Shown: one piece after another, positions 10,489 to 36,628 of the stretch
How the letters are laid out: the number at the start of each line of letters is the position of its first letter
How positions within the stretch are numbered: position 1 is the first letter of the stretch
DNA from: a virus
Length of the DNA stretch: 64,000 nt
Strand: one strand, 5' to 3'
IMG/VR virus record: IMGVR_UViG_3300030098_006570
Location: 84,085-148,084 of that record
Made by a program: the position numbers and the translations under genes
Notes under the pieces: generated by a model
What the model was told of the DNA's origin: nothing
What the model saw: the letters and a program-made list of their open reading frames with translations, nothing else
Database searches by the model: none

Positions 10489-11187
10489 TTAAGTAGTGGC
10501 ATGAAATTCTTTATAGAGGGCCTCCCCTACTCTAAATTGCCACTCATAGTCAATATCAAAGCTTTCCAATTCATTTATAACTACTAGTTCCAAATTGGGA
10601 GGTGCGGCAGTATCCATCCAATAGCCCTCCCCTATAATATCTATACGACTTCCATAGAGACAATGAGCGGCCTCATAGACCGCATCAACATCCTTAGTGT
10701 CCATCCAGCTCCGTCCTTTCCAGTCAGTGAGGTGGTTTTTGTTTTGATCCCAGTAATAGGTTTTCTTTTCGGTCACGGCAAACGCTCCCTCATTCTCTGA
10801 GTGAATAAAAGACTCAATAAAGGTATCGATGGTAGAAACCTCCAGAAGAGGATTGCAGCCGCTCACCATAATCACATATTTATATTGAGGGGGGAGTTTA
10901 TCGTGCCATTCGAAAATGGTGGCTAAGCGCTTTTCTTCTAAGGCTGACTCTTGAGACCTCTCGAAGATATTAATTTGATGACGGCGACCGATCTCTTTGA
11001 TCGGTTCATCATAGGCGGAAAGAAAAATGTTTTCCCGCGGCAGAGACGTCAGTTTTTGTAGTTTACTAAAGAGAACATCGAGCAAGGTAGAACCAGCAAA
11101 TGGGCGCACCATCTTGTTGGGCACACGCTTGGAAGCCAAGCGCGATTGTACCATGAGAGCGATCTCGCTTCTATCTTTCGGCATCAC
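10489..11187 (-). CDS. CMP-nonulosonate synthetase (NeuA/PseF-type cytidylyltransferase) 1
   Basis: SRLASKRVPNK, CNPLL and DIDYEWQF motifs. Confidence 0.85.
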   Translation of the reverse strand: MMPKDRSEIALMVQSRLASKRVPNKMVRPFAGSTLLDVLFSKLQKLTSLPRENIFLSAYDEPIKEIGRRHQINIFERSQESALEEKRLATIFEWHDKLPPQYKYVIMVSGCNPLLEVSTIDTFIESFIHSENEGAFAVTEKKTYYWDQNKNHLTDWKGRSWMDTKDVDAVYEAAHCLYGSRIDIIGEGYWMDTAAPPNLELVVINELESFDIDYEWQFRVGEALYKEFHATT

Positions 11188-11597
11188 TGCTCTTCTCCCT
11201 CAAAAATGTAATATTGTTTGACGAACCCGCACCCCTCAAATAGACGTACGCTCGCCAGATTAGATATGTGAACAATTGCTTTGAGATCTTTCTTTTTTAG
11301 TTCTTGAGAAACATAAATGAGCATCTGTTTTCCCAAGCCTTTGCCCCGGGAGCCCTCGACCACAGCTATAGAGATATAGCCAGATGCATTGAACCCCACA
11401 TATCCCACGGGGGCCGAGTCTTCCAAACAAATATAATACTTATCACCATGCGCTTTCATATAGTTCCGATGTTCTTCGGCAGTAATCTCATGCGAATGCA
11501 TAGAGTTTTCTCGTGACACCTTATCGTTCTTAAGTTTGCGGATGAATGCCCAGTATGAAGGGTTATTTTTAACTATGTGTGCCACGCAATCCTTCAA
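11184..11597 (-). CDS. GNAT N-acetyltransferase (PseH-like)
   Basis: RGKGLG acetyl-CoA motif, NLASVRLFEGCGF; cluster context. Confidence 0.8.
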   Translation of the reverse strand: MKDCVAHIVKNNPSYWAFIRKLKNDKVSRENSMHSHEITAEEHRNYMKAHGDKYYICLEDSAPVGYVGFNASGYISIAVVEGSRGKGLGKQMLIYVSQELKKKDLKAIVHISNLASVRLFEGCGFVKQYYIFEGEEQ

Positions 11598-12150
11598 TCT
11601 GATGGATGGGGGTGGCCCACCCTTTTTCTAGAAGAGGCCAGTATTTCTCCAAATCGCGTTTATAGTGAAAGGAGCCCACCGATTCATCTTGTTTGGTAGG
11701 CGCGATGGCTTGGCTGCGGATGGCGGGCCAGCTCTCTCTAAATAAGTTTTCCATCTCCACTCGCAGACGCCCATATGTTTTCTCAAGCGTGTCTTCCTCG
11801 GGCCCGAAGGTGACCTCTTTCTGGGCAAGGAGGTCGCCCGTATCGATTCCTTCATCGATGAAGTGAATGGAAACGCCCCGGGGGGTGTTGTCCAAGAAAG
11901 ACCAAAAATTAGGATGATAACCGCGATTCCACGGCAAATAGGAAATATGTAAATTAATAACGCGATCTGGGTAGTGTTCCAAAAGAGGCGCCTTCAAGAT
12001 ATACTTATAACCATACGACACAATGAAATCCGGCGCCCAGGCAATTACATCGGGGGTAGCCACGCGCTGAGACGTAGCCCACACGGTGTCCTCTTCTTGG
12101 ATAAAATCTATCAGCGGACTGTCCTCATACCCCAAAAATAAAATTTTCAC
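11569..12150 (-). CDS. Sugar N-formyltransferase (Fmt-N fold)
   Basis: INLHISYLPWNRG and GVSIHFIDEGIDTGD. Confidence 0.88.
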   Translation of the reverse strand: MKILFLGYEDSPLIDFIQEEDTVWATSQRVATPDVIAWAPDFIVSYGYKYILKAPLLEHYPDRVINLHISYLPWNRGYHPNFWSFLDNTPRGVSIHFIDEGIDTGDLLAQKEVTFGPEEDTLEKTYGRLRVEMENLFRESWPAIRSQAIAPTKQDESVGSFHYKRDLEKYWPLLEKGWATPIHQIEGLRGTHS

Positions 12151-12160
12151 TCTTTCCTCC

Positions 12161-13183
12161 CTAATCTTGTGGTGGAGTGTCCAATAGAGAATACGCTAAA
12201 ATGCTATCTTCCGCGACCTCTTCGGTTACCACTCTTCCCAGTACCTCATAAAAATCCGACGCCGGTATCGATTCCTCTAGAAAAGGGCGTTTAGTCGTGA
12301 TGTTTTCGGTTGTGAGAACCTCTCCGGGAACCAAAGGCCGGGTGGCTATGATGGATCTCATTGCAGTTTTCATATTCTCTTCACTCGGCGTCAGGTTGCT
12401 GGTGCGTCGGTTCAAGCAGGTCTCTGCCGTGCGAATGTTGCTTACCATCTGCTGGAGTTCTAGAGGCTCGATCGCAAAGATATGATCGGGGCCTGGTAGC
12501 CGTTGAGAGAGGGTATAATGCTTTTCTACACAAGAAGCACCCAGAGCCACGGCGAGAGGGGGAGCTAAGATCCCCGGTGTGTGGTCGGAAAGGCCGACGC
12601 GCACTTCCGGATAGGCTGCTCGAAGGGTAGGGATTTGTAAGAGATTAATATCTTCGAAGGGGGTAGGATAAGCATTGTTGCAATGTAAAATGGTTACATC
12701 GGGAGTGGAGTTTTCCATAGTTACCCACTCCAGGAGATTAGCAACCGTCTCTACATTACTCCCAATGCCAGCTGATATCACCAAAGGGAGGCCAGTGCTA
12801 GCGACCATGCGTACAAAACGGGGATCGCTAGACTCAAATCCGGCAATTTTGATCCTTTTTACCCCCAGTGCAACGAGTTCATCAACCGCCCTCTCGTCAA
12901 AAGGGCTGGACATAAATTCAATTCCCACTTCATCGCAGTACGCCTTGAGGTCCTTTTGCCACTCTCGCGGGAGTTCAATGTCTTTGATAAGCTGCGTTAT
13001 ATTCTTATAGTTATAGAAATCAGGCGTATGCTTAGAATAGAGGGTTTCCGCTGTATAAGTCTGAAATTTTACCGCATCGGCACCCGCCTCGACAGCTGCA
13101 TCGATGAGAGCCAGGGCTTGGCCAAAATTTCGATTATGATTAGCGCCGGCTTCGGCGATAACAAAGGTACGAGTAGAAGTCAT
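12161..13183 (-). CDS. neuB: Nonulosonic acid synthase (NeuB/PseI family) 1
   Basis: IAEAGANHN, AVKFQTY, GLSDHT, EKHYTL, GPDH and C-terminal SAF domain. Confidence 0.92.
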   Translation of the reverse strand: MTSTRTFVIAEAGANHNRNFGQALALIDAAVEAGADAVKFQTYTAETLYSKHTPDFYNYKNITQLIKDIELPREWQKDLKAYCDEVGIEFMSSPFDERAVDELVALGVKRIKIAGFESSDPRFVRMVASTGLPLVISAGIGSNVETVANLLEWVTMENSTPDVTILHCNNAYPTPFEDINLLQIPTLRAAYPEVRVGLSDHTPGILAPPLAVALGASCVEKHYTLSQRLPGPDHIFAIEPLELQQMVSNIRTAETCLNRRTSNLTPSEENMKTAMRSIIATRPLVPGEVLTTENITTKRPFLEESIPASDFYEVLGRVVTEEVAEDSILAYSLLDTPPQD

Positions 13184-13896
13184 AATTTATTTTCCTTTTC
13201 AAACAGTTGGGAGTAAAGCGCTTCTGCCGCATCAAACTCCCATTGATAATCAATATCAATATATTGTGCTGAATCATAATGGAAGAGGGGCGGATCATTA
13301 GGTTTCTCAAAAGACCCCATATAAACGTGCCGTCCCACATCTTCCATGGTTCCGGCGCGCAGAGGGCCGCCGGAGTAAATAGGCTCGATAAATTTAGTGT
13401 TGAAAGTGCGGCGCGCTTCCTCGGATCCATAAAACGCTTGAAATTGGGATCCATCCTTACGGTAAAAGAAGCGGCGATGCTCTACCACTGAAAATAGGCC
13501 GCGCGAATCTGATTTTACAAAAGCTTCCACAAAGTTGTTCAAAGTTTCCACCTGTACTAGAGGATTGCATACATTCATAAGAATATAATGATCGTAATCG
13601 AGCTTATTCCACCAATCGAAAACCTCAGGCAATGTAAAAGGCTTGGTATCATCATTGCGAATTGAGGTTTCGTCACGTAGATAAACATTAATATTGTGAT
13701 TGTCAGCAATTTCTAAAAGTTCGGGATCGCGAGCAGAAAGATATAAATTCTCCGTGGGAAAAATAGACTCTTTTATCTTCTCAATTGCTACCTCCACCAG
13801 AGTACTTCCGGCGAATGGGTTGATGACTTTCCCTGGCAAACGCGAAGATCCAACGCGTGCTTGCAAAATAAAACAAATTCGATCTAAATTTTTCAC
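13180..13896 (-). CDS. CMP-nonulosonate synthetase (NeuA/PseF/SpsF-type) 2
   Basis: QARVGSSRLPGKV, CNPLV, DIDYQWEF; paralogue of 10489..11187. Confidence 0.85.
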   Translation of the reverse strand: MKNLDRICFILQARVGSSRLPGKVINPFAGSTLVEVAIEKIKESIFPTENLYLSARDPELLEIADNHNINVYLRDETSIRNDDTKPFTLPEVFDWWNKLDYDHYILMNVCNPLVQVETLNNFVEAFVKSDSRGLFSVVEHRRFFYRKDGSQFQAFYGSEEARRTFNTKFIEPIYSGGPLRAGTMEDVGRHVYMGSFEKPNDPPLFHYDSAQYIDIDYQWEFDAAEALYSQLFEKENKL

Positions 13897-14951
13897 CCTA
13901 CCTCATCCTCCGCCGTGATAATGTCCTCGTACCCTACCGCCTCGTTGCGGCGAATGTCTCTCGCAGCCACAGTTCCCAATAGATTGGGATAATGACTAGG
14001 ATCGAGTCCCGCATCTTCGGGCCGTTTACATGTAAGCATCTCCGACGTAATAACATCCCCTGCTCTAATATCTGCCGAAGCACAAATATGCTTGAAATAT
14101 TCTTTTCTATGCGCAAGATCATCGGCGCTGGGGATGATATCCATCGCGCCGAGGGACTTTTCAATATTTCGAATGTGGCCTACCCACTCGGCGAACTCGG
14201 CTGGTTCCTTCGAAATAATGTGATGATGGCCCGGAAGTGCATGACTCAGGGTTAGGCGCTTTTCAATAACTCTGGCGCCTAAACCGATGGCTACATAATC
14301 ATTGATGTCGTAAGAATTCGGTGAGGAAAAGCCTACCCGAACACCGAGTTGCTCCTTCATGTAGGGGATAGAGAGCATATTCATTTCTTCATGATGGGGG
14401 GTGTGATAATCATGTAATAAAATAACATCATTGTCTTTGAGGATGTCGAGGACGATTTTCAGCTCATCTTCGTAGACAGTGCCCACATCAATTATGATAG
14501 GCTCCTTAAGCTTGCTCATTTTTTCCCATAAGGGATAATCGCTCAGATCCCAAGCTCCCACCTTGTAGAGCAAGAAGTTCAACTCTTCGGCATAGTCTAG
14601 GCCTGCTTGACCTTCGATGCTGGCAAAGAGAAGGATATTTTCTTTATCCGCATAAGCTTTTATCTCTTTCCACTCGTCCAGGGTAAACCTCAAGGAGTCA
14701 AACATCTCAAACATATTTTCCGTAACCTTACCGCGCACGGTGTCATAAGTATATTCCACTGTGGGGTCGCTCATCAAATCATCTGGGAAATGGAGAACAA
14801 ACTTAACCGAGTCTGCACCAGCTTTTGCGGCGGCCGATATCAATTGTTTGGTTATATCCATATCATAATTGCAAGTAACTCCAATCTCAGCGATGATAAA
14901 AATATTTTTATCTCCTATAATTCGGTTACCAACTGTAAGCTCTGTGTTCAT
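13893..14951 (-). CDS. neuB: Nonulosonic acid synthase (NeuB family) 2, divergent
   Basis: IIAEIGVT, VKF, EKRLTL, PGHHH and SAF domain; GGAG RBS before ATG 14951. Confidence 0.85.
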   Translation of the reverse strand: MNTELTVGNRIIGDKNIFIIAEIGVTCNYDMDITKQLISAAAKAGADSVKFVLHFPDDLMSDPTVEYTYDTVRGKVTENMFEMFDSLRFTLDEWKEIKAYADKENILLFASIEGQAGLDYAEELNFLLYKVGAWDLSDYPLWEKMSKLKEPIIIDVGTVYEDELKIVLDILKDNDVILLHDYHTPHHEEMNMLSIPYMKEQLGVRVGFSSPNSYDINDYVAIGLGARVIEKRLTLSHALPGHHHIISKEPAEFAEWVGHIRNIEKSLGAMDIIPSADDLAHRKEYFKHICASADIRAGDVITSEMLTCKRPEDAGLDPSHYPNLLGTVAARDIRRNEAVGYEDIITAEDEVG

Positions 14952-15604
14952 TTTATCTCCCTTATTAGTTGAAATTTTTCCGCATATTCCAGGCCGACCT
15001 GGGAACCCCAAAATTTCATCGTATTCTCTACATGTTGATAGCTGCGGGCATGCGGATGGCCCCTCATTTCTTCCTCATAGCATTCCTTTAGACATGTTAT
15101 TTTTTTATCTTTATATTTGGTGACATCAAAATAAACTGTTCCCCTAAAAGAATTGAGAGGATTATAGTCAGTGGACGAGGGAACATAATACGAATAGATT
15201 TTAGTATGATCTCCTCCTTGGGGGCGAAAGACCGTAATCGTGGCCCTATAGACTACCGAATGGTCTATATTCAAACAATCCGGATGATGAGTAAAAATAA
15301 CATCTGGTTTAAAATTAATATTGTTTTCGATAAATCGACACACCTCTAAGAGAGGTACCGAATCCATTTGGTTATCCGGGAAAGATCCATAATTATGGCT
15401 ATGGATACCCAACGTATCGGCTACGGATTTAAGCCTATAATTCCGATTCTGAGCATCAGGGGTCATCCAGGCTCGAGCGCTGATACCATCCGTAAAGGTC
15501 AACAGGTGAACGCGATGTCCCTCTGCACTCAGCCGCGCTATGGTGGCGCCACACCCAAAAGTTTCATCATCAGGGTGGGCCGCTAAAACTAAAATATTCT
15601 TCAT
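14948..15604 (-). CDS. PIG-L/LmbE-family de-N-acetylase
   Basis: AAHPDDE and D-x-N-x-DH motifs. Confidence 0.9.
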   Translation of the reverse strand: MKNILVLAAHPDDETFGCGATIARLSAEGHRVHLLTFTDGISARAWMTPDAQNRNYRLKSVADTLGIHSHNYGSFPDNQMDSVPLLEVCRFIENNINFKPDVIFTHHPDCLNIDHSVVYRATITVFRPQGGDHTKIYSYYVPSSTDYNPLNSFRGTVYFDVTKYKDKKITCLKECYEEEMRGHPHARSYQHVENTMKFWGSQVGLEYAEKFQLIREIK

Positions 15605-15610
15605 CTTCTC

Positions 15611-16306
15611 TCAAACCTCAATCAGTCTTTTAACATTTTCAACACCTATATTGAATAGTATATCATAAAATCCCATCCAAGGCACGAAGTTTTCCATGTT
15701 GTGTTGTGAATGGGGGGGCGTTTCGGCGTCATGATAAATGAGCCCTATTTCAGTGCCTCCAAATACATCTTCCACCCCATAATCTTTAGCCGGGTGGCCA
15801 CAAATATAATGAGTAGCCCCCACTTTTTTACAGAGATTCACAATTTTATGGGGCCCCTTTGCATCCACGCTTAGGCTGCTGGACTTAAGAAGCTCAACCT
15901 CAAAACCTAGTAGATTACATGTCAGCTCCAAGAGATGGAGTGTAACCTCCGTGTAATCAAAATTGAACTTTTCAACCACTGTGTCCAATTTATCATAAAA
16001 CATATCTAATATTTTACCGTCATAGTGGGGATGGTTAGAATAAGCTCGACGGAGTTGATCGCGGTGATGTCCTATCCACTCCAAATTAGCTATTTCGGAC
16101 TCAGAAATCAGAGCCCGCGACGAGGAGGAAATCGGAATGGTGAGCCAGGTGGGACGGCCGTCGAGTAAGATCTTGTTGCGATTTTCAAATGCACGTGATT
16201 GACGCTGTACATCGTCGAGAACTATAAAGAGGTCGGCCTGATAGAGACGCTGAATATAACTCAATATGGGAATGTATCGCGGTTGGGTTATGACAACAGA
16301 TTTCAT
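15611..16306 (-). CDS. WbqC-family protein
   Basis: QPRYIP, FIVLDDVQ, FENRNKI, WLTIP. Confidence 0.88.
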   Translation of the reverse strand: MKSVVITQPRYIPILSYIQRLYQADLFIVLDDVQRQSRAFENRNKILLDGRPTWLTIPISSSSRALISESEIANLEWIGHHRDQLRRAYSNHPHYDGKILDMFYDKLDTVVEKFNFDYTEVTLHLLELTCNLLGFEVELLKSSSLSVDAKGPHKIVNLCKKVGATHYICGHPAKDYGVEDVFGGTEIGLIYHDAETPPHSQHNMENFVPWMGFYDILFNIGVENVKRLIEV

Positions 16307-17172
16307 TCATTCCCAGCCAATTCGGATAGAAGAGCGGAGATTCGCCCATCATGCTCATTAACTCGACCCATCAGCTTTCTGGCTTCAGTTGGCGCATGTG
16401 TAAAGGCCAAGCGAAGAATATCCATCCAATTCACATTATTCTTGCTACGGATCTCCTGTACCTCATCGAGGATTTCGAGGTCGCTCCTTTTTTGGGTGGC
16501 ACCAGTTTCCTTGGTGACCAGAAAGCTCACCTCCACCGAACCGCAGCAGTAGCCATGATTTTCACCTACTGTGACGCGCTCGCAGGTCGTAAATCCGACG
16601 TCCTTGGCGATCTTCGCAATGTCCCCATATTTCATCCAGAGTACATTCCACTCTCTGGCGCGCTCATTCCCTTCGTTCTCTCGCTTTTCGATATCATAGC
16701 CATGATAAACAAGGGCCTTACCTCCCTCTTCTAAGAGATTGTAAATGTTTTCCATACTGGTCTGTAACCCTGCATCATTGAGATAGGGAAAGACAGCGCC
16801 ACAAATAATTTTATTGAACTTTTTACCCTCTAGGTTGGAAAGATGAGGCAACGAATCTTGAATGGCTTCCATCTTGTGACTGTTCCCCGTCTTTCGGGCC
16901 CACTTATTAAAATTGTTTACATAATTAGCATAGGGTTCGACCAGGGTTAGAGAGGTGAAGCGCTCGCTATCTAATTGTTTGATAAAATGACCCGTACCTC
17001 CTCCAAGGTCCAAGATGGTATCACCATCTTCAAAAGACAAAAACTTGTCAATGTCATCTCCAATACTGGCAAAAACCGAATCAGGATAGGCCCCGCGGCC
17101 ATGGGCAATTTTATAATCGGAGTAGCTGCTTCTCTCACTCCAATATTTCTTCCATGTTTTTTCTCTTTCCAT
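16303..17172 (-). CDS. Class I SAM-dependent methyltransferase with extra C-terminal helical domain
   Basis: ILDLGGGTG motif I; C-terminal RSKNNVNWMDILRLAF segment. Confidence 0.8.
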   Translation of the reverse strand: MEREKTWKKYWSERSSYSDYKIAHGRGAYPDSVFASIGDDIDKFLSFEDGDTILDLGGGTGHFIKQLDSERFTSLTLVEPYANYVNNFNKWARKTGNSHKMEAIQDSLPHLSNLEGKKFNKIICGAVFPYLNDAGLQTSMENIYNLLEEGGKALVYHGYDIEKRENEGNERAREWNVLWMKYGDIAKIAKDVGFTTCERVTVGENHGYCCGSVEVSFLVTKETGATQKRSDLEILDEVQEIRSKNNVNWMDILRLAFTHAPTEARKLMGRVNEHDGRISALLSELAGNE

Positions 17173-17196
17173 AAGAATCTTATCTCCTTTTCTTTC

Positions 17197-18141
17197 TTAT
17201 AAATTTAGCGCTTCGTCGAAGCTAATATAAGGAACCACTTGATTTATCAAAGTGTATGTGTCATCGAAAACACTGTAAATTTCCATCTGATGCAGGTGTT
17301 GCAGATCTACCCATTTTTTAACGAACCCGAGCGACACATCACGCTGATCTTCTTGCTCTGCAGCGTGGGCGGCCGGACGCGAGGCTCCAAAATTAGAGGC
17401 CTCTAGAGTGTTGCGTAAAACCACATCTTCATCGATTTCCCAAAAACGGGCGCCCACAAAATCAAACCCCATTATCATCACCCGTCGCGCTTTCAAAAAC
17501 TGCGCTAAGGGAAAAATAGCGCTTGAGACCTTATTTTCTAGTCCCCATTTGCGCGCCATCGTATAGGGAGGAAGAAAAACCTGCTCTCCATCAAAGGCGG
17601 CCGTGCCGAAAACAATGGGGCCCTCCGTTTCAAAGCGATTTTCAAAATCCCCTACGCAATAGGTATCATCAGGAGTCGTCGTATTGAGCCCCATGGTCTG
17701 TTGATACTTGGTGGTAGTAGCTTTAAACACTGTCACTTTGATCCCGATATGTCTAACTTGATCCAAAAGCTCTAAATACTCGTCCCAACTACAGGTCCGA
17801 TGCTCATCATCTACTCGATCTGGAGCGGTAGGGGTGGTTCCCCCATACAAGCGATAATATGCATAATTGTCGGCTAAAAAGTGAGGAACCAAAATTTCTA
17901 TATTCATCAATCTTTCATACTGGGGGGCCGTCGAGGGCACCGTCAGTAAAAATCTAAGACCTTCGGCTGCAGAGTTAGGGTCCATCCACGCCCAGTAATC
18001 GGGGACCACATTATAAAATTTATATTCCAGTGGAAAGGTCCGCTGGAACGAAAGAATCTTGTCACCGCTGCGTCGCAGTTTTTCCAGCTCTTCTTTGTGG
18101 TAGGCAATAGACTCACCAGTTCCCAGGACCCATAATTTCAT
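17197..18141 (-). CDS. Maf/DUF115-like putative nonulosonate transferase
   Basis: N-terminal VLGTGES, PDYWAWMDP, C-terminal IMGFDF, as in the Maf/CstII-like fold. Confidence 0.6.
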   Translation of the reverse strand: MKLWVLGTGESIAYHKEELEKLRRSGDKILSFQRTFPLEYKFYNVVPDYWAWMDPNSAAEGLRFLLTVPSTAPQYERLMNIEILVPHFLADNYAYYRLYGGTTPTAPDRVDDEHRTCSWDEYLELLDQVRHIGIKVTVFKATTTKYQQTMGLNTTTPDDTYCVGDFENRFETEGPIVFGTAAFDGEQVFLPPYTMARKWGLENKVSSAIFPLAQFLKARRVMIMGFDFVGARFWEIDEDVVLRNTLEASNFGASRPAAHAAEQEDQRDVSLGFVKKWVDLQHLHQMEIYSVFDDTYTLINQVVPYISFDEALNL

Positions 18142-18227
18142 GGTTTGTGATCTCTTTGTATGTTCAAGTACATCTGCTTTATTCTACTCTATTCTGCGCG
18201 GGATTTAAATACGATTATAAAGAATTT

Positions 18228-19232
18228 TCACGGTTCCGGCGAATATAGAGGGAGATTGAGGATAGTGGAATGAACCTCTTCTAAAAGGGGTAAACAGTGT
18301 TTCTCTACTGAAGACCAATAAGCGGTAGTGTGAAGCATGGGATAGTGGCGCGCTACTCCGATTCTCTCTGTCAAGGCCTCTGCATTATCCACCAAAGTGG
18401 TTCCCAAATAATAAGAAGAATGGGAATCTTGGGGGAGTAATGTAAATTCTTCGCCCCACCTTTCATAGTTAGTTTTGCGCTCGGCTAATTGTGCTGCGTA
18501 ACGAGGCAACTGCGTAAGCGCTACTGTTGCGCTTAAGTTATTCATATAAAATTTAAACCCCTCCTGGGTGATGTCATAAGAGGACCCAGAGGTCACGCGC
18601 CCAAAATTGCGATAAGAGCGGAAATAATTTTCCGCCGCCGAATCGTTGGTGCCAATAAGGCCGCCGTCGGGACTACATATGGGCTTATAAGGATGAAAAG
18701 AGAAAAATACAAAATCAGATTTGATCGTAGGAGTCACGCAATGGGCGCTATCTACCACCACTACCTCATCTCCATAAGGTTCAAAATCTTCAATATTACT
18801 CACACCCCCATAAAGGACCGGCATGAGAACAACCGGCAGGGAGGGTTTCTGCAAAGAAACTGCAAGGCGCCTCTCTTTATAAGAAGTTGTCGAAAATTGG
18901 AGATCTTTATTCACATCCACAAATATGACCCGATGGCCATTTTGCCGCGCGGCCCAGGCGGGAGATGTAAACCCGAGGGATGTGGTATAAACATCACACG
19001 GGCCTTTAAGTGCGAAAAGATAAGCGAAAATCATATAGGCTGCAGCGCTAGCGGAATTTGTGGCAATATTGTAAGATTTATGTGAAAAAGATGTAAACTG
19101 ATTTTCAAATTCTGTAACGTTGGGACCGAAACCGAGGGCGCCCTTTTGGAGAACCTCTATAATAGAGGGCAGATCTTCAGCAAGTATAGAAGAATCAAAG
19201 GCCTTCATTTTAGAAGATATCTTCATAAACAT
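18228..19232 (-). CDS. DegT/DnrJ PLP sugar aminotransferase (PseC-like)
   Basis: NSASAA, DSAH, FSFHPYKPI (PLP lysine), GGLI. Confidence 0.88.
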   Translation of the reverse strand: MFMKISSKMKAFDSSILAEDLPSIIEVLQKGALGFGPNVTEFENQFTSFSHKSYNIATNSASAAAYMIFAYLFALKGPCDVYTTSLGFTSPAWAARQNGHRVIFVDVNKDLQFSTTSYKERRLAVSLQKPSLPVVLMPVLYGGVSNIEDFEPYGDEVVVVDSAHCVTPTIKSDFVFFSFHPYKPICSPDGGLIGTNDSAAENYFRSYRNFGRVTSGSSYDITQEGFKFYMNNLSATVALTQLPRYAAQLAERKTNYERWGEEFTLLPQDSHSSYYLGTTLVDNAEALTERIGVARHYPMLHTTAYWSSVEKHCLPLLEEVHSTILNLPLYSPEP

Positions 19233-19303
19233 GCTCCCCCGAGTTATTGGTCATTATATATTTACGAGCACCGGCGCCCTGGGACCAATATTCCTCTTGT
19301 GGA

Positions 19304-20278
19304 TTAGTTGGCATCGCCCAATCCCCGCTCAATCAGTCGCACTAATTCATCCACATTATCACTCATATGCAATGCGGAGTTGAACTCCGGGCCATCATAG
19401 GACGCCCAGGCTGTCCGAGCGGTGCGATTAGTATATTGAGGGCGTACGCCCAACAGATTGAGGCCGGGGACCGCGTAAGTAAACGGTAATTCGGTGGCGG
19501 CGAGCATATCTTCGTGAAGTTTCTCTCCAGGTCGCAGCCCGATCAATTCATAGTCGACAGGGGCGCCGTGCAACTTCTCCACGGCTTTAATAATTGTAGT
19601 CATATCATAAGAGCAGATCTGGGGAATAAAAACTTCGCCACCCTCGGCATTTTCGAGGGCGCCCAGGACCGTATCCACTGCATCTTCGAGGGTAAACAAA
19701 AAGCGGGACATCTCAAGCGACGTCACTTTGATATTCTTCCCCTCCCCAAGAAGACCGAGCCATAGAGGGATAAAAGATCCGCGGGACGCAATCACATTTC
19801 CATATCTCACTGATGCAAAGATGGTTCCTTCGGATTGATAGTCATAGTTGGTGTAGAGTCGTTCTGCGATAAACTTTGAGGACCCATAGACGTTGACCGG
19901 TTGGCAGGCCTTATCGGTGGAAATAAGAATACACTTTTTCACCATGTTCAAAAGAGCGGCCCGGGCCACATTTTCGGATCCAGCAATATTAGTTTTTACA
20001 CACTCATCCGGGTAGAATTCCATATCATCAATACGTTTGAGAGCGGCGGTGTGGATAACATAGTCGGGCTTGAAGCGCTTCATTGTAACATTGAGTTTAT
20101 CGAAATCTCGTACGTCCCCAATGACGCGTATAACCTCAGGTAATGGCCCAAAGGAAAGGGCTTGTTTGCCTTCGTCACGGCTAAACACCACTATCTTATT
20201 CAAAGGATCTTTGAGTAGGCGTTTGATGAGGGCTTTTCCAAGCGATCCCGTGCCGCCCGTAATCAAGTATGTTGTCAC
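19304..20278 (-). CDS. pseB: UDP-GlcNAc 4,6-dehydratase (PseB/FlaA1-like)
   Basis: TGGTGSLG, SRDE, STDKA, YGSSK, RYGNVIASRGS, RPGEKLHE. Confidence 0.85.
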   Translation of the reverse strand: MTTYLITGGTGSLGKALIKRLLKDPLNKIVVFSRDEGKQALSFGPLPEVIRVIGDVRDFDKLNVTMKRFKPDYVIHTAALKRIDDMEFYPDECVKTNIAGSENVARAALLNMVKKCILISTDKACQPVNVYGSSKFIAERLYTNYDYQSEGTIFASVRYGNVIASRGSFIPLWLGLLGEGKNIKVTSLEMSRFLFTLEDAVDTVLGALENAEGGEVFIPQICSYDMTTIIKAVEKLHGAPVDYELIGLRPGEKLHEDMLAATELPFTYAVPGLNLLGVRPQYTNRTARTAWASYDGPEFNSALHMSDNVDELVRLIERGLGDAN

Positions 20279-22314
20279 AGTTCCACCCGTTCTATCTTAT
20301 CGTCAGCCGGATTCAGCCGGGAGATAATCTTTAGTTCACACTCATTTTGGCGAAGCCAATCGTGCCAGTCACCCACTACACTCAAAGTAATTCCCTCCTC
20401 ATGAGGAAGCGTTTTGGCCGCCGTCTCGTTGGCGGCGACTTCATTGGAGTGGATAAATTCTTCCTTCTTGTAAGTACTGCCTTCTTTATCATAAAAGTGT
20501 TGGTGAGCAGCGCCTTCGGGGAGCAATTTATTGTCCCATCCAATAGTGATGACCTCGCTCACCCCCAGATGCTGAAGGAGATAGAAGACAGCCTCGTACA
20601 TGATGCCGGGCCCATAAGGACGGAGCATTCCTTGTTTGTCCAGGGTCCACTCATCAAAATTCTTCTTGGCCGCTACGGAGTTATCAAAATTTCTCTCCTG
20701 AATAAAGAACTTCAAATCACACTCTCCCAACTTGAAAGGAGTAGTGGACGCTTCCAAAACGACTGGGCGGCGCGCAGTGTAGTCATACTTCTTATAGTTA
20801 GCGCAGTTATAAACATGGAAATCCGTGAACGATGCAAACAGATCATAAGCCTGTTTGATGGCAATCGTGAGATTATTTTCCAGCAGCCCCTTTACGGCAT
20901 CCTCATCGTGTTCTGTTAACGTGGGTCCGCAAGAGAGCACATAACATTTCTCTCCCTTGAAGAGGTCCTTCAGGAGGGCCAGCTTTTCGGACTGCAGACC
21001 GAACTGGGCGACGGCCGTTGTTGCAGCTGCAGCACGATCTTTGGGGTTTTCTATCTGCAGTAGATCTTCGCGTGCTTTCCCAATACTGTCTTTGGTGCCC
21101 TCCAGGGGTACCCCTAAGCTCTCAACAAACTGTGCATACATATTTTCCGGAGTGAAGTTCTCAAGGATATGCTTTTGAAGAGCGAGAGCCTCTTGCTTAT
21201 AGTGCTGCTGCTTGGTAATTGCCTCCTTGAGGGCGCGCTTGTACGAGTTTTCCTTGGCATAAGCCCACATAGAATCCTTTTGGAGGACCCCATCCCAGAC
21301 GGCCGCCTTCTGAATCGGCTTCACATTATAATCTACCTTGATGATACGAGGAAAGTTTTTACCCTTCTTGTTGGGACGACAAATGTAATCCATCTGCCCG
21401 CTCCACGCCATCGTGATAAGCGGAAGACCATTATATGCTGCCTCAAACATAGGGAGGCCATACCCTTCCCCGTGAGCGATATTAATCAAGGCGCGCATGG
21501 ACGGGTGCTGATAGAGCCACGTAAGGTTCTCCATACTAATCTCTCCATGGACCATGTAAATCTTGCATTTGCGGTCCGGGATGGCCTGCAGGATTCGCTC
21601 AATTGTCCACCCTGTGTGGTAGCGATCTCGAATACTGTCGCATGCGATGCTTGTCTTGACCACAAGTCCCGCTGTCTCATCATCTTTGAAAGTTTCCGCA
21701 AACCACTTAATGGTGTTTTCCATATTCTTCCGGGGGCCCCACTGCGACACTACCAAGAAATTATTAGTAGTGGTAAACTCGATGTTTAGGGGGTCAGCTT
21801 CTCTTACCCGCGTGGGGTAATTCACAACTTCTACAGGGAGGTCAGGGCGCAGGCCCCAGTTCGGCACCTCTTCACCGGTTTCCTGAGCAGTGACAGCGTA
21901 CTTTGTATTCTGGAATACATCTCGTGAATGTGCAGAAATGGTAACCAAGCGCTGTACCGTCGTGTTGCATTTTTCAATCCACTGGGGGGCGACCTTGGTT
22001 GTTTCAATTCCAGCCGTATACCCAACGTTGTAGGGAGCAATGGGCTCAAACTCATTTGGAATAGTCACCTGTAGGGACATGTCAAAGGTCCCGCCGTTTT
22101 GAGTATAAACTTGAGTCTTTAGCATCAAGCTGTCCAACCACCGGCGCTCTTCGCTGTTTTCCATCATCATCCCGGTTTTCCCCCATGGGATATTGATAGC
22201 ATAAATATCAAATACGTCTTCTCGGGTGCGCAATGCTCGCAGCGCGAACCGGGCCTGTTCGCCATAGCCGGATCGGCTAAGAGCCGGCGCCTTCACTAAT
22301 ATTTTCTTTTTCAT
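20275..22314 (-). CDS. GT-B (GT4-like) glycosyltransferase fused to a Maf/DUF115-like domain
   Basis: SGYG, RKN and EGYGLPMFEA in the N-terminal part; VLSCGPTL...LGVSEVITIGWD in the C-terminal part. Confidence 0.75.
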   Translation of the reverse strand: MKKKILVKAPALSRSGYGEQARFALRALRTREDVFDIYAINIPWGKTGMMMENSEERRWLDSLMLKTQVYTQNGGTFDMSLQVTIPNEFEPIAPYNVGYTAGIETTKVAPQWIEKCNTTVQRLVTISAHSRDVFQNTKYAVTAQETGEEVPNWGLRPDLPVEVVNYPTRVREADPLNIEFTTTNNFLVVSQWGPRKNMENTIKWFAETFKDDETAGLVVKTSIACDSIRDRYHTGWTIERILQAIPDRKCKIYMVHGEISMENLTWLYQHPSMRALINIAHGEGYGLPMFEAAYNGLPLITMAWSGQMDYICRPNKKGKNFPRIIKVDYNVKPIQKAAVWDGVLQKDSMWAYAKENSYKRALKEAITKQQHYKQEALALQKHILENFTPENMYAQFVESLGVPLEGTKDSIGKAREDLLQIENPKDRAAAATTAVAQFGLQSEKLALLKDLFKGEKCYVLSCGPTLTEHDEDAVKGLLENNLTIAIKQAYDLFASFTDFHVYNCANYKKYDYTARRPVVLEASTTPFKLGECDLKFFIQERNFDNSVAAKKNFDEWTLDKQGMLRPYGPGIMYEAVFYLLQHLGVSEVITIGWDNKLLPEGAAHQHFYDKEGSTYKKEEFIHSNEVAANETAAKTLPHEEGITLSVVGDWHDWLRQNECELKIISRLNPADDKIERVEL

Positions 22315-23570
22315 CAGTACACCTTCACTTCATAGCTATTATAACCGGTCCGGTTCTCCCATGATCCCATGGTTTCATGGACATGCGTGAACAAATTGTC
22401 CCATCGCTCCACAAACGTTTCGAACCCAAACTGCTTTTCAGCCCAAGCACGACCGCGGAGGCCCCACTCGCGCCGCTGTTCTTCCGGCATCTTATACATA
22501 TCCGTCAGAGCTTGCACTACGTCCTCACCAGCCAGTCGGTCCTCGTATATAAAGGGAACTTCCTGACTGCCAATGATAGATTTGGACGATGGTTCTAATC
22601 CGATTCCGTACCAATTATCCTCTCCATCCTTTATCTGATCCTGAAGCCCTCCTGTCAGGGTTGCTATGATTGGGGTGCCACAGGAGAGAGACTCCAATGT
22701 AGATAACCCGAATCCTTCAGCGTCTGACACATTGATTGTGGCATCAGCAAGATTATACATCATTGCTAAATCAACCGCATTCACTTTTTCTTTAGACAAC
22801 AAAACCTGGCCGTTTGTCAGGTCAAGCTCTTTCATAATCGCTTCCAAATCCTGCCCATGAACGTCCTTTGGGTCTGTGTGCATTATAAGGGTGGCCTTGT
22901 CATGTAGATCGTTTTGGTCTAGAAAATCCTTAAACCAATAGATAAGAGATCCTGACTGTTTACGTCGTGCATTTCGATTATTCCATGCTACTACAAACTT
23001 GCCGGCTAATCCCTTCTCTTCCTTTATTGCCGCCACAGCCGCGGGGTCCAGCGGCTTGAAAATTTCCCCGTCCACCGCGTGGGGGATATAAGAACTCTCC
23101 ACACTAGGCGAGACAGTTTGTACAATATCATATGTAAGCTGTGAAATGCAAGCAATATGATCGTTAGAATCGTACCAGACGCGATTGAAGCTAGGATAGG
23201 GATAATTATCCCACACATGATAGTAAACCATGGGAACATGCGTTCTGATTTCGTTCTCAATATCCCACAGCCATGTATAAAATCTGGGATCGGTCATAAA
23301 CCAGAGAATATCCGGCTTTTGCTGGTGAATCATCGCGCGAACCATGTCCGCGTTTCCGTACCCATCTACAGGCCAAATGATCCAGTCTTGTCCCCACTCA
23401 GGCGTATGCTGAGGGTCGTGACGGGGGTGCTTGATGGCACCGCCGAAGCTGACAAATTGATATTTTCCTGTCTTGAGCATCCCTTCGATAATGTATTTTG
23501 TTTGTGTGCCCACACCGGAAGGGGAAAGCGGGTGGTCACTGATCGTAAAGATCTTAATCTTGTCTGACAT
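22314..23570 (-). CDS. GT4-family glycosyltransferase
   Basis: NRNARRK and EGFGLSTLES (EX7E); GGAG RBS before ATG 23570. Confidence 0.85.
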   Translation of the reverse strand: MSDKIKIFTISDHPLSPSGVGTQTKYIIEGMLKTGKYQFVSFGGAIKHPRHDPQHTPEWGQDWIIWPVDGYGNADMVRAMIHQQKPDILWFMTDPRFYTWLWDIENEIRTHVPMVYYHVWDNYPYPSFNRVWYDSNDHIACISQLTYDIVQTVSPSVESSYIPHAVDGEIFKPLDPAAVAAIKEEKGLAGKFVVAWNNRNARRKQSGSLIYWFKDFLDQNDLHDKATLIMHTDPKDVHGQDLEAIMKELDLTNGQVLLSKEKVNAVDLAMMYNLADATINVSDAEGFGLSTLESLSCGTPIIATLTGGLQDQIKDGEDNWYGIGLEPSSKSIIGSQEVPFIYEDRLAGEDVVQALTDMYKMPEEQRREWGLRGRAWAEKQFGFETFVERWDNLFTHVHETMGSWENRTGYNSYEVKVY

Positions 23571-23578
23571 TCTGTCTC

Positions 23579-35076: not shown

Positions 35077-35077
35077 T

Positions 35078-36283: not shown

Positions 36284-36289
36284 CGTTTA

Positions 36290-36607: not shown

Positions 36608-36628
36608 CTACATTACCCCTTCTTTCCC

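What the first reader, a model, noticed from the sequence alone, without database searches (positions are those of the whole stretch)
10489..23570. Phage-encoded dual nonulosonic-acid synthesis, tailoring and transfer system
Seen: 14 contiguous co-oriented genes. These are a PseB-like dehydratase, PseC-like aminotransferase, GNAT, formyltransferase, PIG-L deacetylase, WbqC, methyltransferase, two NeuB, two NeuA-type CMP-synthetases, and three transferase genes carrying two GT4 and two Maf/DUF115-like domains. Known: PseB-C-H-G-I-F makes CMP-pseudaminic acid, Maf proteins transfer it to flagellin, and deacetylase with formyltransferase/WbqC alters N-acyl groups. Inference: the phage makes two differently decorated nonulosonates. 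It may attach them to virion proteins (the cluster abuts the baseplate/late genes), to the host surface, or to DNA.
Basis: partly seen in the sequence, partly recalled or inferred. Interest (0 to 1): 0.8.

Follow-up and report, generated by a model that had tools for sequence, protein, structure and literature searches.

The report
Phage sialic-acid-like sugar glycosylation island
An uncultured marine T4-like phage carries a 13-kb operon that should make a pseudaminic-acid-type nine-carbon sugar, re-decorate it, activate it and attach it with two stripped-down flagellin-type (Maf-like) transferases, most likely to proteins, but neither the sugar nor its target has been measured.

Summary
The contig is a genuine myovirus, and the same gene slot is conserved in independent viral contigs.

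New points:
- The two "Maf-like" domains are real but minimal. The 314-aa protein's model matches the Maf catalytic domain (Z 12.0). The C-terminus of the 679-aa protein matches MptE/WaaZ-like models.
- The island is the variable part of a locus anchored by a GT4 gene pair, found in 67 of 67 related loci. Only 13 of 67 carry a NeuB gene, and all 8 loci with Maf-like domains (one outside the 67) carry NeuB.
- The second NeuB lacks both metal-binding histidines yet is under purifying selection. It belongs to a NeuB-like subfamily that accompanies a true PseI in bacterial Pse clusters. It is therefore not evidence for a second nonulosonate.
- No PseG or NeuC hydrolase exists in this or related phages.

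The acceptor is unresolved. I favour virion protein, then host surface; DNA is unlikely. This scan noted phage nonulosonate plus mini-Maf modules at least 35 times before on other DNA. I found no publication describing one.

The parts
22314..23612 (-). GT4a: GT-B glycosyltransferase and first gene of the conserved anchor pair. Its real start is probably Met15 at 23570.
   Evidence: PF00534 scores 46.3 bits against a 26.4 cut-off. The pair is present in 67 of 67 related loci, and at least 569 viral contigs are hit. The best solved relative of the family profile is chlorovirus glycosyltransferase B736L (3oy2), E 5.4e-19 over the full length. Met15 is invariant in the alignment.
20275..22314 (-). 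GT4b-Maf fusion of 679 aa: an N-terminal GT4-like GT-B domain (about residues 1-400) and a C-terminal MptE/Maf/WaaZ-like domain (about residues 410-679).
   Evidence: The N-terminus scores PF00534 21.2 bits, below the cut-off; it is homologous to the GT4b of all related loci. For the C-terminus: PF01973 E 6.5e-4; hhalign against the Maf314 family gives 87% probability, E 4e-6; the Atlas structure search gives TM 0.62-0.84 to PF01973/WaaZ_KDO_III clusters. The domain is a separate gene in L010 and L079.
19304..20278 (-). PseB-like UDP-GlcNAc 4,6-dehydratase (short soluble Polysacc_synt_2 type).
   Evidence: PF02719 264 bits. TIGR03589 PseB 260 bits is the best NCBIfam match, against 204 for FnlA, but lies below the 407.75 cut-off. 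It is 69-72% identical in L008, L009 and L010.
18228..19232 (-). PseC-like DegT-family sugar aminotransferase.
   Evidence: PF01041 125 bits. TIGR03588 PseC 107.5 bits is the best match, below the 423.5 cut-off.
17197..18141 (-). Maf314: a stand-alone Maf/sialyltransferase-like catalytic domain and putative CMP-nonulosonate transferase.
   Evidence: It has no Pfam hit of its own, but 31 of 70 family members hit PF01973 and no other family. The AF2 model has pLDDT 90.5. The best structural match is 5mu5, the Maf glycosyltransferase, at Z 12.0 over 202 residues of its central domain; the next matches are HPPK-MptE at 8.5 and the sialyltransferases ST3Gal and Cst-I at 8.4. The Foldseek top hit is Cst-II.
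16303..17172 (-). Class I SAM-dependent methyltransferase (tailoring).
   Evidence: Methyltransf_25, _23, _11 and _12 score 29-37 bits.
15611..16306 (-). WbqC-family protein, found in O-antigen clusters; biochemical function unknown.
   Evidence: PF08889 156.6 bits. No NCBIfam or PDB relative. No functional paper found. It also occurs in the nonulosonate islands L035 and L100.
14948..15604 (-). PIG-L/LmbE-family de-N-acetylase.
   Evidence: PF02585 83.7 bits. The PIG-L plus formyltransferase pair recurs in bacterial Pse clusters L110 and L128; PIG-L also occurs in L115 and L116.
13893..14951 (-). NeuB_2: a NeuB-fold + SAF protein of a distinct subfamily with a remodelled active site. It is an accessory of Pse-type clusters, not a canonical synthase.
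   Evidence: PF03102 140.8 bits. His215 and His236 of N. meningitidis NeuB are replaced by Pro and Arg, and NHN becomes TCN and GPDH becomes GHHH. All 120 sampled relatives share these motifs. dN/dS is 0.053 against L007. The bacterial context is given. The start was corrected.
13180..13896 (-). CMPs_B: CMP-nonulosonate synthetase-like cytidylyltransferase.
   Evidence: PF02348 51.2 bits; PseF is the best NCBIfam match at 45.7, below the cut-off. It keeps the R-S-R-P-K and D-I-D motifs. dN/dS is 0.051.
12161..13183 (-). NeuB_1: canonical-looking nonulosonate synthase (TIM barrel + SAF); sugar specificity unresolved.
   Evidence: PF03102 250 bits. TIGR03569 scores 302.6 and TIGR03586 266, both below their cut-offs. 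It keeps NHN, KFQ, SDH, EKH and GPDH. It forms its own clade in the tree, apart from the PseI references and the NeuB/LegI references. It lies directly after PseB-PseC in L008 and L010. dN/dS is 0.029.
11569..12150 (-). N-formyltransferase (N10-formyl-THF dependent; sugar-N-formyltransferase-like).
   Evidence: PF00551 68.8 bits. The best NCBIfam matches are the ArnA formyltransferase domain and dTDP-4-amino-4,6-dideoxyglucose formyltransferase.
11184..11597 (-). GNAT N-acetyltransferase, weakly PseH-like.
   Evidence: PF00583 45.2 bits. TIGR03585 PseH 35.9 bits, below the 93.1 cut-off.
10489..11187 (-). CMPs_A: second cytidylyltransferase, 31% identical to CMPs_B.
   Evidence: PF02348 47 bits. 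The catalytic motifs are kept. It is 56-65% identical in L008 and L009. dN/dS is 0.071.

Best explanation
This is a phage-encoded, cytoplasmic glycosylation system for a pseudaminic-acid-type nonulosonic acid. It forms the variable cargo of a glycan locus that a large clade of marine distant-T4-like myoviruses keeps between its exonuclease/PhoH genes and its late sigma factor and tail genes.

Inferred chemistry:
1. UDP-GlcNAc is dehydrated by the PseB-like enzyme.
2. It is aminated by the PseC-like enzyme.
3. It is N-acylated by the GNAT or the formyltransferase. The PIG-L deacetylase allows the original N-acetyl to be exchanged, and the methyltransferase and WbqC add further decoration.
4. 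The freed hexose is condensed with PEP by NeuB_1.
5. The product is activated with CTP by the cytidylyltransferases.

NeuB_2 is an accessory enzyme of unknown reaction that belongs to this pathway type. The UDP-releasing hydrolase step (PseG) is not encoded. It must come from the host or from an unrecognised protein.

Inferred transfer: the conserved GT4a/GT4b pair puts a first sugar on a protein acceptor. The two minimal Maf-like domains, one free and one fused to GT4b, then add the CMP-activated nonulosonate. The most likely acceptors are the phage's own surface proteins, the Ser/Thr-rich fibre-like proteins.

Shown: gene content, family and fold assignments, conservation, co-occurrence and selection.
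Inferred: every reaction, the sugar's identity and the acceptor.
For: The contig is a real phage and the island is native to it:
- The contig carries RNR, DnaB, tail sheath, major head protein, portal, TerL and a gp6-like baseplate protein.
- The same slot, exonuclease - GT4a - GT4b - sugar genes - sigma factor, is found in independent IMG/VR contigs.
- Six island genes have dN/dS of 0.03-0.24 against L007.

Pathway families are assigned.

NeuB_1 keeps all canonical active-site motifs. It follows PseB-PseC directly in L008 and L010.

Bacterial clusters containing the NeuB_2 subfamily read PseB-PseC-NeuB2-PseF-PseG-(formyltransferase/PIG-L/PseH)-PseI. In 14 of 16 of them the canonical synthase is of true PseI type. 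This ties the phage gene set to Pse-type chemistry.

Both cytidylyltransferases keep their catalytic motifs.

Maf-like transferases:
- The Maf314 model matches Maf 5mu5 at Z 12.0 and matches sialyltransferases.
- The 679-aa protein's C-terminus is MptE/WaaZ-like.
- Maf-like domains occur only in loci that carry NeuB: 8 of 8, against 14 of 68 loci with NeuB. The hypergeometric P is about 4e-7, not corrected for relatedness.

A cytoplasmic protein target is favoured because:
- All 14 proteins lack hydrophobic segments.
- No Wzx, Wzy or initiating-transferase hit appeared in any Pfam scan of island genes.
- The phage has no flagellin gene.
- The GT4a profile's best solved relative is a chlorovirus glycosyltransferase.
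- The motif hydrophobic-[ST]-[GAS]-S is about 4-fold over composition-based expectation in fibre-like structural-module proteins.
Against: - No PseG or NeuC hydrolase is present in this contig, in 88 related loci, or in a complete 204-kb relative. The pathway is incomplete on paper.
- None of the Pse enzymes reaches its NCBIfam equivalog cut-off. NeuB_1 falls outside both the PseI and the NeuB/LegI reference clades on an unresolved backbone. The sugar's stereochemistry is therefore unknown.
- The MptE-like fold also includes WaaZ-type Kdo transferases that act on lipid-linked glycans, so a non-protein acceptor is possible.
- The Ser-rich motif partly reflects internal structural repeats of one fibre. 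That fibre is not conserved in relatives.
- A perfect sigma-70-type promoter lies upstream at 25445-25417. It hints at early expression, which would fit host modification as well.
- Nothing has been measured experimentally.
Confidence: 0.5

Rival explanations
1. Host-surface conversion. The enzymes act on host structures such as flagellin, S-layer or pilin glycoproteins, LPS or capsule. This would change the cell surface during infection, block superinfection by competing phages, or keep progeny from sticking to debris. Virions would not be modified.
For: - This is the published reading of glycosyltransferase and sugar clusters in marine T4-like phages: the 24 'LPS' genes of P-SSM2 (PMC1079782) and the host-recognition cluster of pelagimyophages (PMC7029224).
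- The missing PseG suggests dependence on a host that already makes such sugars.
- A sigma-70-like promoter lies upstream.
- WaaZ-type relatives of the Maf-like fold act on LPS.
Against: - No flippase, polymerase, initiating transferase or membrane-anchored protein appears in this island or in the scanned relatives.
- The phage looks lytic and T4-like, not temperate.
- The Maf-like proteins lack the flanking domains of flagellin Mafs.
- The locus sits beside late and tail genes, and its content varies like a serotype locus among phages that share the core GT4 pair.
Confidence: 0.27
2. Precursor-supply auxiliary metabolism only. The phage boosts or redirects the host's own nonulosonate pathway, as other auxiliary metabolic genes do, and has no dedicated phage-specified acceptor. 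The second NeuB and second cytidylyltransferase would be redundancy.
For: - The pathway is incomplete without a host PseG.
- pseI is listed among marine phage auxiliary genes in a review table (PMC6359870).
Against: - The operon carries its own transferases: two GT4 and two Maf-like domains.
- The Maf-like domains co-occur strictly with NeuB across loci.
- NeuB_2 is not a redundant copy but a distinct conserved subfamily.
Confidence: 0.1
3. DNA hypermodification. The GT-B enzymes and nonulosonate transferases decorate modified bases in phage DNA, as T4 glucosyltransferases do.
For: - T4 alpha- and beta-glucosyltransferases are GT-B enzymes (established knowledge).
- The island lies next to exonuclease and PhoH genes.
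Against: - No ThyA-family hydroxymethylase and no ThyX is present in the 148 kb held.
- In every characterised case I know of, Maf and sialyltransferase-like enzymes act on proteins or glycans.
- No nonulosonate-DNA adduct turned up in the one DNA-glycosylation paper I checked.
- About 18% of the genome is missing, so this is not fully excluded.
Confidence: 0.03
4. Assembly chimera, or bacterial DNA mis-binned as viral.
For: The genes are of bacterial type. The contig comes from a metagenome and is linear, with a CheckV completeness of 82%.
Against: - Phage genes flank the island on both sides.
- GC content does not jump across it.
- The same synteny is seen in dozens of independent contigs, including complete genomes with terminal repeats.
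- The genes are under purifying selection between two phage contigs.
Confidence: 0.01

Closest known systems
Bacterial flagellin O-glycosylation islands: the Pse pathway (PseB, C, H, G, I, F) plus Maf transferases, as in Campylobacter, Helicobacter, Aeromonas and Magnetospirillum (Maf structure 5MU5)
   Same: - The logic is the same: a soluble cytoplasmic pathway from UDP-GlcNAc to a CMP-nonulosonate, then a Maf-fold transferase.
- The Maf314 model matches the Maf catalytic domain at Z 12.0.
- N-acyl tailoring genes (formyl, methyl, deacetylase) resemble the diversity of those islands.
   Different: - There is no flagellin and no PseG.
- The Maf-like proteins are reduced to the catalytic domain (314 aa against 632 aa), or that domain is fused to a GT4 domain.
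- Every enzyme is below its equivalog cut-off.
- The synthase lies outside the PseI reference clade.
- The system is encoded by a lytic-type phage.
Bacterial Pse clusters of the type PseB-PseC-[NeuB-like subfamily]-PseF-PseG-(formyltransferase/PIG-L)-PseI, found here in uncultured Desulfobacterota, Omnitrophota, Planctomycetota, Peregrinibacteria and other phyla (L103-L132)
   Same: They share the unusual NeuB_2 subfamily gene followed directly by a cytidylyltransferase gene. Some also share the formyltransferase and PIG-L pair.
   Different: The bacterial clusters have PseG, a true PseI (50-66% identical to the PseI references) and a PseF-like cytidylyltransferase. The phage has a divergent synthase (NeuB_1), two divergent cytidylyltransferases, Maf-like transferases and no PseG.
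Sugar and 'LPS' gene clusters in hypervariable regions of marine T4-like phages: P-SSM2 (Sullivan 2005, PMC1079782) and the pelagimyophage host-recognition cluster (Zaragoza-Solas 2020, PMC7029224)
   Same: In both, large non-syntenic islands of glycosyltransferase and sugar-nucleotide genes sit next to tail or fibre genes in T4-like marine myoviruses.
   Different: Those reports describe GT8/GT2 and deoxy-sugar genes and propose host O-chain modification. They do not describe a nonulosonate pathway, Maf-like transferases or a conserved GT4 anchor pair. This phage's head protein is closest to Flavobacterium, Rhodothermus and Microcystis phages, not to pelagimyophages.
Virus-encoded virion glycosylation: chlorovirus capsid glycosylation enzymes (B736L structure 3OY2); mycobacteriophage capsid and tail glycosyltransferases (the latter from my own knowledge, not checked here)
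   Same: The virus carries its own soluble glycosyltransferases. The GT4a family profile matches B736L over its full length at E 5e-19.
   Different: I know of no nonulosonate or Maf-like enzyme in those systems. B736L's own substrate is, to my knowledge, unknown.
Prophage EpaA/EpaB of Acinetobacter baumannii (PMC12053666)
   Same: These are phage-borne genes, one with a CTP_transf_3 domain, that act on pseudaminic acid.
   Different: It is a two-gene epimerisation module in temperate phages that edits a host-made capsule sugar. It has no synthase and no transferase.

Membership tests
Canonical CMP-pseudaminic acid pathway (PseB, C, H, G, I, F) | PseB: inverting UDP-GlcNAc 4,6-dehydratase at equivalog level (TIGR03589) | tested here: inconclusive
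   PseB is the best NCBIfam match at 260.2 bits, but below the 407.75 cut-off. FnlA scores 204.5.
Canonical CMP-pseudaminic acid pathway (PseB, C, H, G, I, F) | PseC aminotransferase and PseH acetyltransferase at equivalog level | tested here: not met
   PseC scores 107.5 against a 423.5 cut-off. PseH scores 35.9 against 93.1. Each is the best match for its protein but far below the cut-off.
Canonical CMP-pseudaminic acid pathway (PseB, C, H, G, I, F) | PseG UDP-sugar hydrolase present | tested here: not met
   TIGR03590 finds nothing in the 148-kb contig or in 5 related records, one of them complete. A local PseG HMM finds nothing in 88 related loci. The contig is 82% complete.
Canonical CMP-pseudaminic acid pathway (PseB, C, H, G, I, F) | PseI synthase: inside the PseI clade and above the TIGR03586 cut-off | tested here: not met
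   NeuB_1 scores 266 against a 340.25 cut-off and scores higher on NeuB_NnaB (302.6). In the tree it forms a separate clade from the PseI references, which have 100/99 support. NeuB_2 scores 161.
Canonical CMP-pseudaminic acid pathway (PseB, C, H, G, I, F) | PseF cytidylyltransferase at equivalog level | tested here: not met
   The two proteins score 31.7 and 45.7 bits against a 205.7 cut-off. The Pfam CTP_transf_3 cut-off is passed and the catalytic motifs are kept.
NeuB family nonulosonate synthases (PF03102 + SAF) | TIM-barrel NeuB domain plus C-terminal SAF domain, above the Pfam cut-offs | tested here: met
   NeuB_1 scores 250 and 37 bits. NeuB_2 scores 141 and 33 bits.
NeuB family nonulosonate synthases (PF03102 + SAF) | Two metal-ligand histidines (His215 and His236 of N. 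meningitidis NeuB) and the NHN, KFQ and GPD motifs | tested here: not met
   NeuB_1 keeps all of them. NeuB_2 has Pro and Arg at the two His positions and TCN, KFV and GHH at the motifs. The same holds in all 120 subfamily members sampled. That these two residues are the Mn ligands is from my own knowledge of the 1XUZ structure paper.
Maf (motility-associated factor) flagellin nonulosonate glycosyltransferases | MAF_flag10/MptE-like (PF01973) catalytic domain with a sialyltransferase-like fold | tested here: met
   Both proteins' own Pfam scores are below the cut-off (16 bits). However, 31 of 70 Maf314 family members hit PF01973. The Maf314 model matches 5mu5 at Z 12.0 over 202 residues. The 679-aa protein's C-terminus gives TM 0.62-0.84 to PF01973 clusters.
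Maf (motility-associated factor) flagellin nonulosonate glycosyltransferases | N- and C-terminal helical domains flanking the catalytic domain (about 630-aa proteins), with flagellin as substrate | tested here: not met
   Maf314 is 314 aa and aligns only to residues 273-512 of 5mu5. The phage contig has no flagellin gene.
Maf (motility-associated factor) flagellin nonulosonate glycosyltransferases | Transfers a CMP-nonulosonate to Ser/Thr of a protein | not testable with these tools
   Only co-occurrence is available: all 8 related loci with a Maf-like domain also carry NeuB.
GT4 retaining GT-B glycosyltransferases | Glycos_transf_1 domain above the Pfam cut-off | tested here: met
   GT4a scores 46.3 against 26.4. 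The 679-aa protein's N-terminus scores only 21.2, below the cut-off, but the Atlas structure search matches clusters in which 99% of members carry PF00534.

The most novel reading that the evidence does not exclude
A very abundant clade of marine T4-like myoviruses (at least 569 contigs) keeps a serotype-like, hypervariable glycan locus anchored by two core GT4 genes and uses it to sugar-coat its own fibres or capsid. In about a fifth of lineages, this one included, the coat is capped with a tailored pseudaminic-acid-like sugar. That sugar is added by minimal Maf-type transferases and made with the help of a previously unstudied NeuB-like enzyme subfamily that has a Cys/His3-type active site. 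Phage particles would then have O-antigen-like surface diversity.
Probability: 0.3. Interest if true: 0.85.

Novelty: new variant of a known kind. Interest (0 to 1): 0.62.

Why it matters
If these phages coat their particles with nonulosonic acids, virion glycosylation in phages would extend to acidic, sialic-acid-like sugars and to a globally abundant ocean phage group. That could affect adsorption, aggregation, grazing, recognition by host defences, and how marine virus particles are detected.

The locus also offers compact Maf-type transferases that lack flagellin-binding domains, which may be useful for glyco-engineering.

It also points to a widespread NeuB-like subfamily in Pse clusters of many bacterial phyla whose reaction is unknown.

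Finally, it shows that counting NeuB homologues overestimates the number of nonulosonates a cluster makes.

Tried and rejected
- Megablast of the island against GenBank phages found no match. A NeuB_1 protein search there gave only 3 distant hits.
- A single-sequence AF2 model of the 314-aa protein was useless (pLDDT 33). It was redone with a 70-sequence alignment.
- Sequence and profile searches of the PDB with Maf314 and with the 679-aa protein's C-terminus found nothing significant. Only fold comparison worked.
- BLASTP between Maf314 and the 679-aa protein showed just a shared V-I-x-G-[FW]-D motif.
- Assigning NeuB_1 to PseI, LegI or NeuB failed. HMM scores, PDB scores and a 27-sequence ML tree leave the backbone unresolved. 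The reference set was small and was labelled by annotation and gene context, not by experiment.
- I first suspected NeuB_2 was a pseudoenzyme or decaying copy. I rejected that because dN/dS is 0.053 and its motifs are conserved in all 120 sampled relatives. The first dN/dS run was wrong because of a mis-set start.
- I tested whether the Ser-rich 851-aa fibre is conserved in five complete relatives. It is not, so motif conservation could not be assessed.
- The T4 late-promoter consensus TATAAATA has no informative sites on the gene strand in the island.
- Literature searches for phage nonulosonate pathways found nothing specific. A search for WbqC function found nothing.
- One search was a mis-specified query.
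Bacterial context was obtained with the search for related loci instead.

Full report
**1. What is there**

The window is the last 64 kb of a 148,084-bp IMG/VR viral contig, which CheckV estimates as 82% complete. Between 10489 and 23612 lie 14 minus-strand ORFs that overlap or are separated by fewer than 90 bases.

Pfam and NCBIfam give these assignments, in order of transcription:
- GT4a.
- A 679-aa protein with a GT4-like N-terminus.
- A PseB-like dehydratase.
- A PseC-like aminotransferase.
- A 314-aa protein with no family.
- A SAM methyltransferase.
- WbqC.
- A PIG-L deacetylase.
- NeuB_2.
- A cytidylyltransferase (CMPs_B).
- NeuB_1.
- A formyltransferase.
- A GNAT.
- A second cytidylyltransferase (CMPs_A).

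There are two boundary corrections:
- NeuB_2 starts at 14951, because the near-identical locus L007 has in-frame stops upstream.
- GT4a probably starts at Met15 (23570), which is invariant in homologues.

**2. It is phage DNA**

- The contig encodes ribonucleotide reductase, a DnaB-like helicase, tail sheath, major head protein, portal, large terminase and a gp6-like baseplate wedge.
- Around the island it also encodes an endolysin-like protein, a gp55-like late sigma factor, an exonuclease and PhoH.
- The head protein is closest to Flavobacterium phage immuto (44%), Rhodothermus phage RM378 (42%) and Microcystis phage Mel-JY01 (35%). This makes it a distant T4-like myovirus.
- GC content is flat across the island.
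- The order PhoH - orf206 - exonuclease - GT4a - GT4b - sugar genes - small ORFs - sigma factor recurs in independent viral contigs.
- Against L007 (88-97% amino-acid identity per gene), six island genes give dN/dS of 0.03-0.24 at dS of 0.26-0.81.

A chimera is excluded for practical purposes.

**3. The island is the variable part of a conserved locus**

I scanned 88 fetched loci with HMMs built here. All 67 loci with at least 9 kb of downstream sequence have the GT4a-GT4b pair. Among those 67, other genes are much rarer:

| Gene family | Loci with it (of 67) |
|---|---|
| NeuB-family gene | 13 |
| Cytidylyltransferase | 14 |
| PseB-like gene | 13 |
| DegT aminotransferase | 30 |

Pfam scans of unexplained island genes in L008-L010 show other contents: ATP-grasp, GT2 and GT8-like transferases, FkbM methyltransferases, a GFO/IDH/MocA oxidoreductase and further GNATs.

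Maf-like domains occur in 8 loci (L008, L009, L010, L045, L067, L079, L091, L100), and every one of them has NeuB. L045 has only 8.4 kb downstream, so the comparison set is 68 loci, of which 14 carry NeuB. The hypergeometric P is about 4e-7. This is not corrected for relatedness, so it is only indicative.

GT4b exists in two forms. One is about 420 aa. The other is 660-720 aa with an added C-terminal domain, which is Maf-like in nonulosonate islands and unidentified elsewhere.

**4. The two Maf-like domains**

*The 314-aa protein.*
- It has only about 144 relatives at 50% clustering.
- PF01973 (MptE-like, the Maf domain family) is hit by 31 of 70 members, and no other family is hit.
- With that alignment AF2 gives pLDDT 90.5.
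- The exhaustive structure comparison puts the Magnetospirillum Maf glycosyltransferase 5mu5 first, at Z 12.0 with rmsd 4.0 over 202 residues of chain residues 273-512. It stands clear of HPPK-MptE (8.5) and of the sialyltransferases ST3Gal and Cst-I (8.4). Foldseek puts Cst-II first.
- The conserved motifs L-G-x-G-x-S, G-F-D-x-x-G-x-R-F and a C-terminal His resemble the nucleotide-binding and catalytic motifs of that superfamily. This last point is my own reading.

*The 679-aa protein's C-terminus (residues about 410-679).*
- PF01973 gives E 6.5e-4.
- hhalign against the Maf314 family gives 87% probability, E 4e-6, over the G-x-G-x-S region.
- In the ESM Atlas it gives structural TM 0.62-0.84 to clusters that carry PF01973, some together with WaaZ_KDO_III.
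- It is a separate gene in L010 and L079.

Both are therefore catalytic-domain-only members of the Maf/sialyltransferase-like fold. They lack the flanking domains of flagellin Mafs.

**5. Two NeuBs do not mean two sugars**

*NeuB_1.*
- It keeps every motif that is invariant in six reference synthases.
- It belongs to a large marine clade at 60-68% identity, many members of which sit on 120-180-kb contigs.

*NeuB_2.* It differs at the catalytic core:

| Canonical motif | NeuB_2 | Note |
|---|---|---|
| N-H-N | T-C-N | |
| K-F-Q | K-F-V | |
| S-T-G-M | D-V-G-T | |
| S-D-H | S-S-P | His215 of N. meningitidis NeuB |
| E-K-H | E-K-R | His236 of N. meningitidis NeuB |
| G-P-D-H | G-H-H-H | |

- It is not decaying. 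dN/dS is 0.053, and all 120 sampled relatives at 44-93% identity share TCN, EKR and GHHH.
- 30 loci were found in species-representative genomes of diverse uncultured bacteria, and my subfamily HMM recovered the gene in 27. There the typical order is PseB - PseC - [this subfamily] - cytidylyltransferase - PseG - (formyltransferase / PIG-L / PseH) - NeuB.
- The neighbouring cytidylyltransferase is PseF-like. The other NeuB is 50-66% identical to PseI references in 14 of 16 cases.

NeuB_2 therefore marks a Pse-type cluster variant in which it is an extra enzyme of unknown reaction beside the real synthase.

This has two consequences. It supports Pse-type chemistry for the phage operon, which has the same formyltransferase and PIG-L combination. 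It also removes the main argument for two parallel nonulosonate pathways.

What remains for "two" are the two cytidylyltransferases and the two Maf-like domains. The cytidylyltransferases are 31% identical and both keep R-S-R-P-K and D-I-D. Related islands mix these numbers freely: 1 NeuB with 2 cytidylyltransferases in L009, and 2 NeuB with 1 in L010.

A third phage NeuB lineage without a SAF domain exists in L004, L008 and L010.

**6. Which sugar?**

This is unresolved.
- By NCBIfam, NeuB_1 scores 302.6 on NeuB/NnaB and 266 on PseI, both under their cut-offs.
- By PDB, it scores 186 bits on SpsE, 176 on PseI and 146 on NmNeuB.
- In an ML tree it forms its own clade (100/99 support), separate from the PseI references and from the NeuB/LegI references. 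The backbone is unresolved.
- Gene context favours a Pse-like 5,7-diamino sugar: a PseB-type short soluble dehydratase, PseB-PseC-NeuB_1 adjacency in L008 and L010, and the NeuB_2 association.

**7. A missing step**

No PseG and no NeuC/LegG-type hydrolase is detectable at any of these levels:
- the 148-kb contig;
- the 88 related loci, where the few NeuC-family hits are in islands with no NeuB in range;
- five related records, including a complete 203,859-bp genome with terminal repeats.

Either the host supplies this step or an unrecognised protein does.

**8. Acceptor**

*Points that favour protein, probably the phage's own.*
- All 14 proteins are predicted soluble.
- No lipid-carrier machinery was seen in any Pfam scan of island genes.
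- There is no flagellin gene.
- GT4a's best solved relative is the chlorovirus glycosyltransferase B736L.
- The island adjoins the late sigma factor and the tail and fibre genes.
The counts are 42 observed against 11 expected in an 851-aa fibre-like protein and 43 against 13 in the 3269-aa protein.

*Caveats.*
- Part of that signal comes from internal repeats, and the fibre is not conserved in relatives.
- The published view of such islands is host-surface modification (PMC1079782, PMC7029224).
- Prophage EpaAB edits capsule pseudaminic acid (PMC12053666).
- WaaZ-like relatives act on LPS.
- A perfect sigma-70 promoter lies upstream at 25445-25417.
- DNA is unlikely, because there is no ThyA- or ThyX-type enzyme.

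**9. Novelty**

- I found no paper describing a phage nonulosonate pathway with Maf-like transferases. The searched library is limited to open-access text.
- This scan has noted similar modules at least 35 times in other, mostly smaller phages.
- New here are the T4-like host genome, the conserved GT4 anchor with serotype-like variable cargo, the GT4-Maf fusion, the systematic lack of PseG, and the NeuB_2 subfamily.

Verdict: a real, well-conserved system and a new variant of the bacterial Pse/Maf protein-glycosylation kind. Its mechanism is inferred, not shown.

Noticed in passing
window 13893-14951; bacterial loci L103-L132: A widespread NeuB-like subfamily: at least 739 clusters in the protein search, and 30 loci in species-representative bacterial genomes of many phyla. 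Its members share T-C-N, E-K-R and G-H-H-H motifs in place of the canonical metal-binding residues. The gene sits between PseC and PseF in otherwise complete Pse clusters. Its reaction is unknown.
   Followed up: partly
L029, L031, L033, L034, L037, L054, L061, L065, L066, L069, L070, L083, L095, L097 (GT4b genes of 660-720 aa): Many relatives have a long GT4b whose C-terminal domain does not match the Maf-like domain HMM. The GT4b C-terminus therefore looks like a swappable module. L031, L033 and L034 combine such a protein with NeuB and/or a cytidylyltransferase.
   Followed up: no
L004:19818-20729, L008:7105-7965, L010:12358-13191: A third phage NeuB lineage of 277-303 aa lacks the SAF domain. 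It has S-G-H instead of S-D-H but keeps both histidines.
   Followed up: partly
window 25417-25445 and 25522-25549 (minus strand): Perfect (12 of 12) and near-perfect (11 of 12) sigma-70-type promoter matches lie inside the 3' end of the PhoH gene. They point towards orf206, the exonuclease and the island.
   Followed up: no
window 8820, 9238, 24947, 27670, 33677, 39451, 44271, 44808: TATAAATA occurs 9 times against 2.2 expected. Eight of the 9 are on the plus strand, so they read TATTTATA on the coding strand. Several lie just upstream of minus-strand start codons, for example at 39451 and 44271.
   Followed up: no
contig 34819-37374, 40318-41073, 59791-61032, 80778-82343, 70961-80770 (upstream of the window): The motif hydrophobic-[ST]-[GAS]-S is about 4-fold over-represented in fibre-like structural proteins. 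The 851-aa protein contains repeated V-S-A-S-A-N-L-T-A-S-G-H-V-S-A-S-A-F-Y-G-like units.
   Followed up: partly
L008:15003-16625: In one relative, the Maf314-type domain is the N-terminal half of a 540-aa protein with an unidentified C-terminal extension.
   Followed up: no
window 26585-27307 and 32679-34544: Further nucleotidyltransferase-like genes lie outside the island: a 240-aa heptose-adenylyltransferase/NMNAT-like protein and a 621-aa protein with a cytidyltransferase-like domain. They were not examined and may belong to NAD metabolism rather than sugar metabolism.
   Followed up: no
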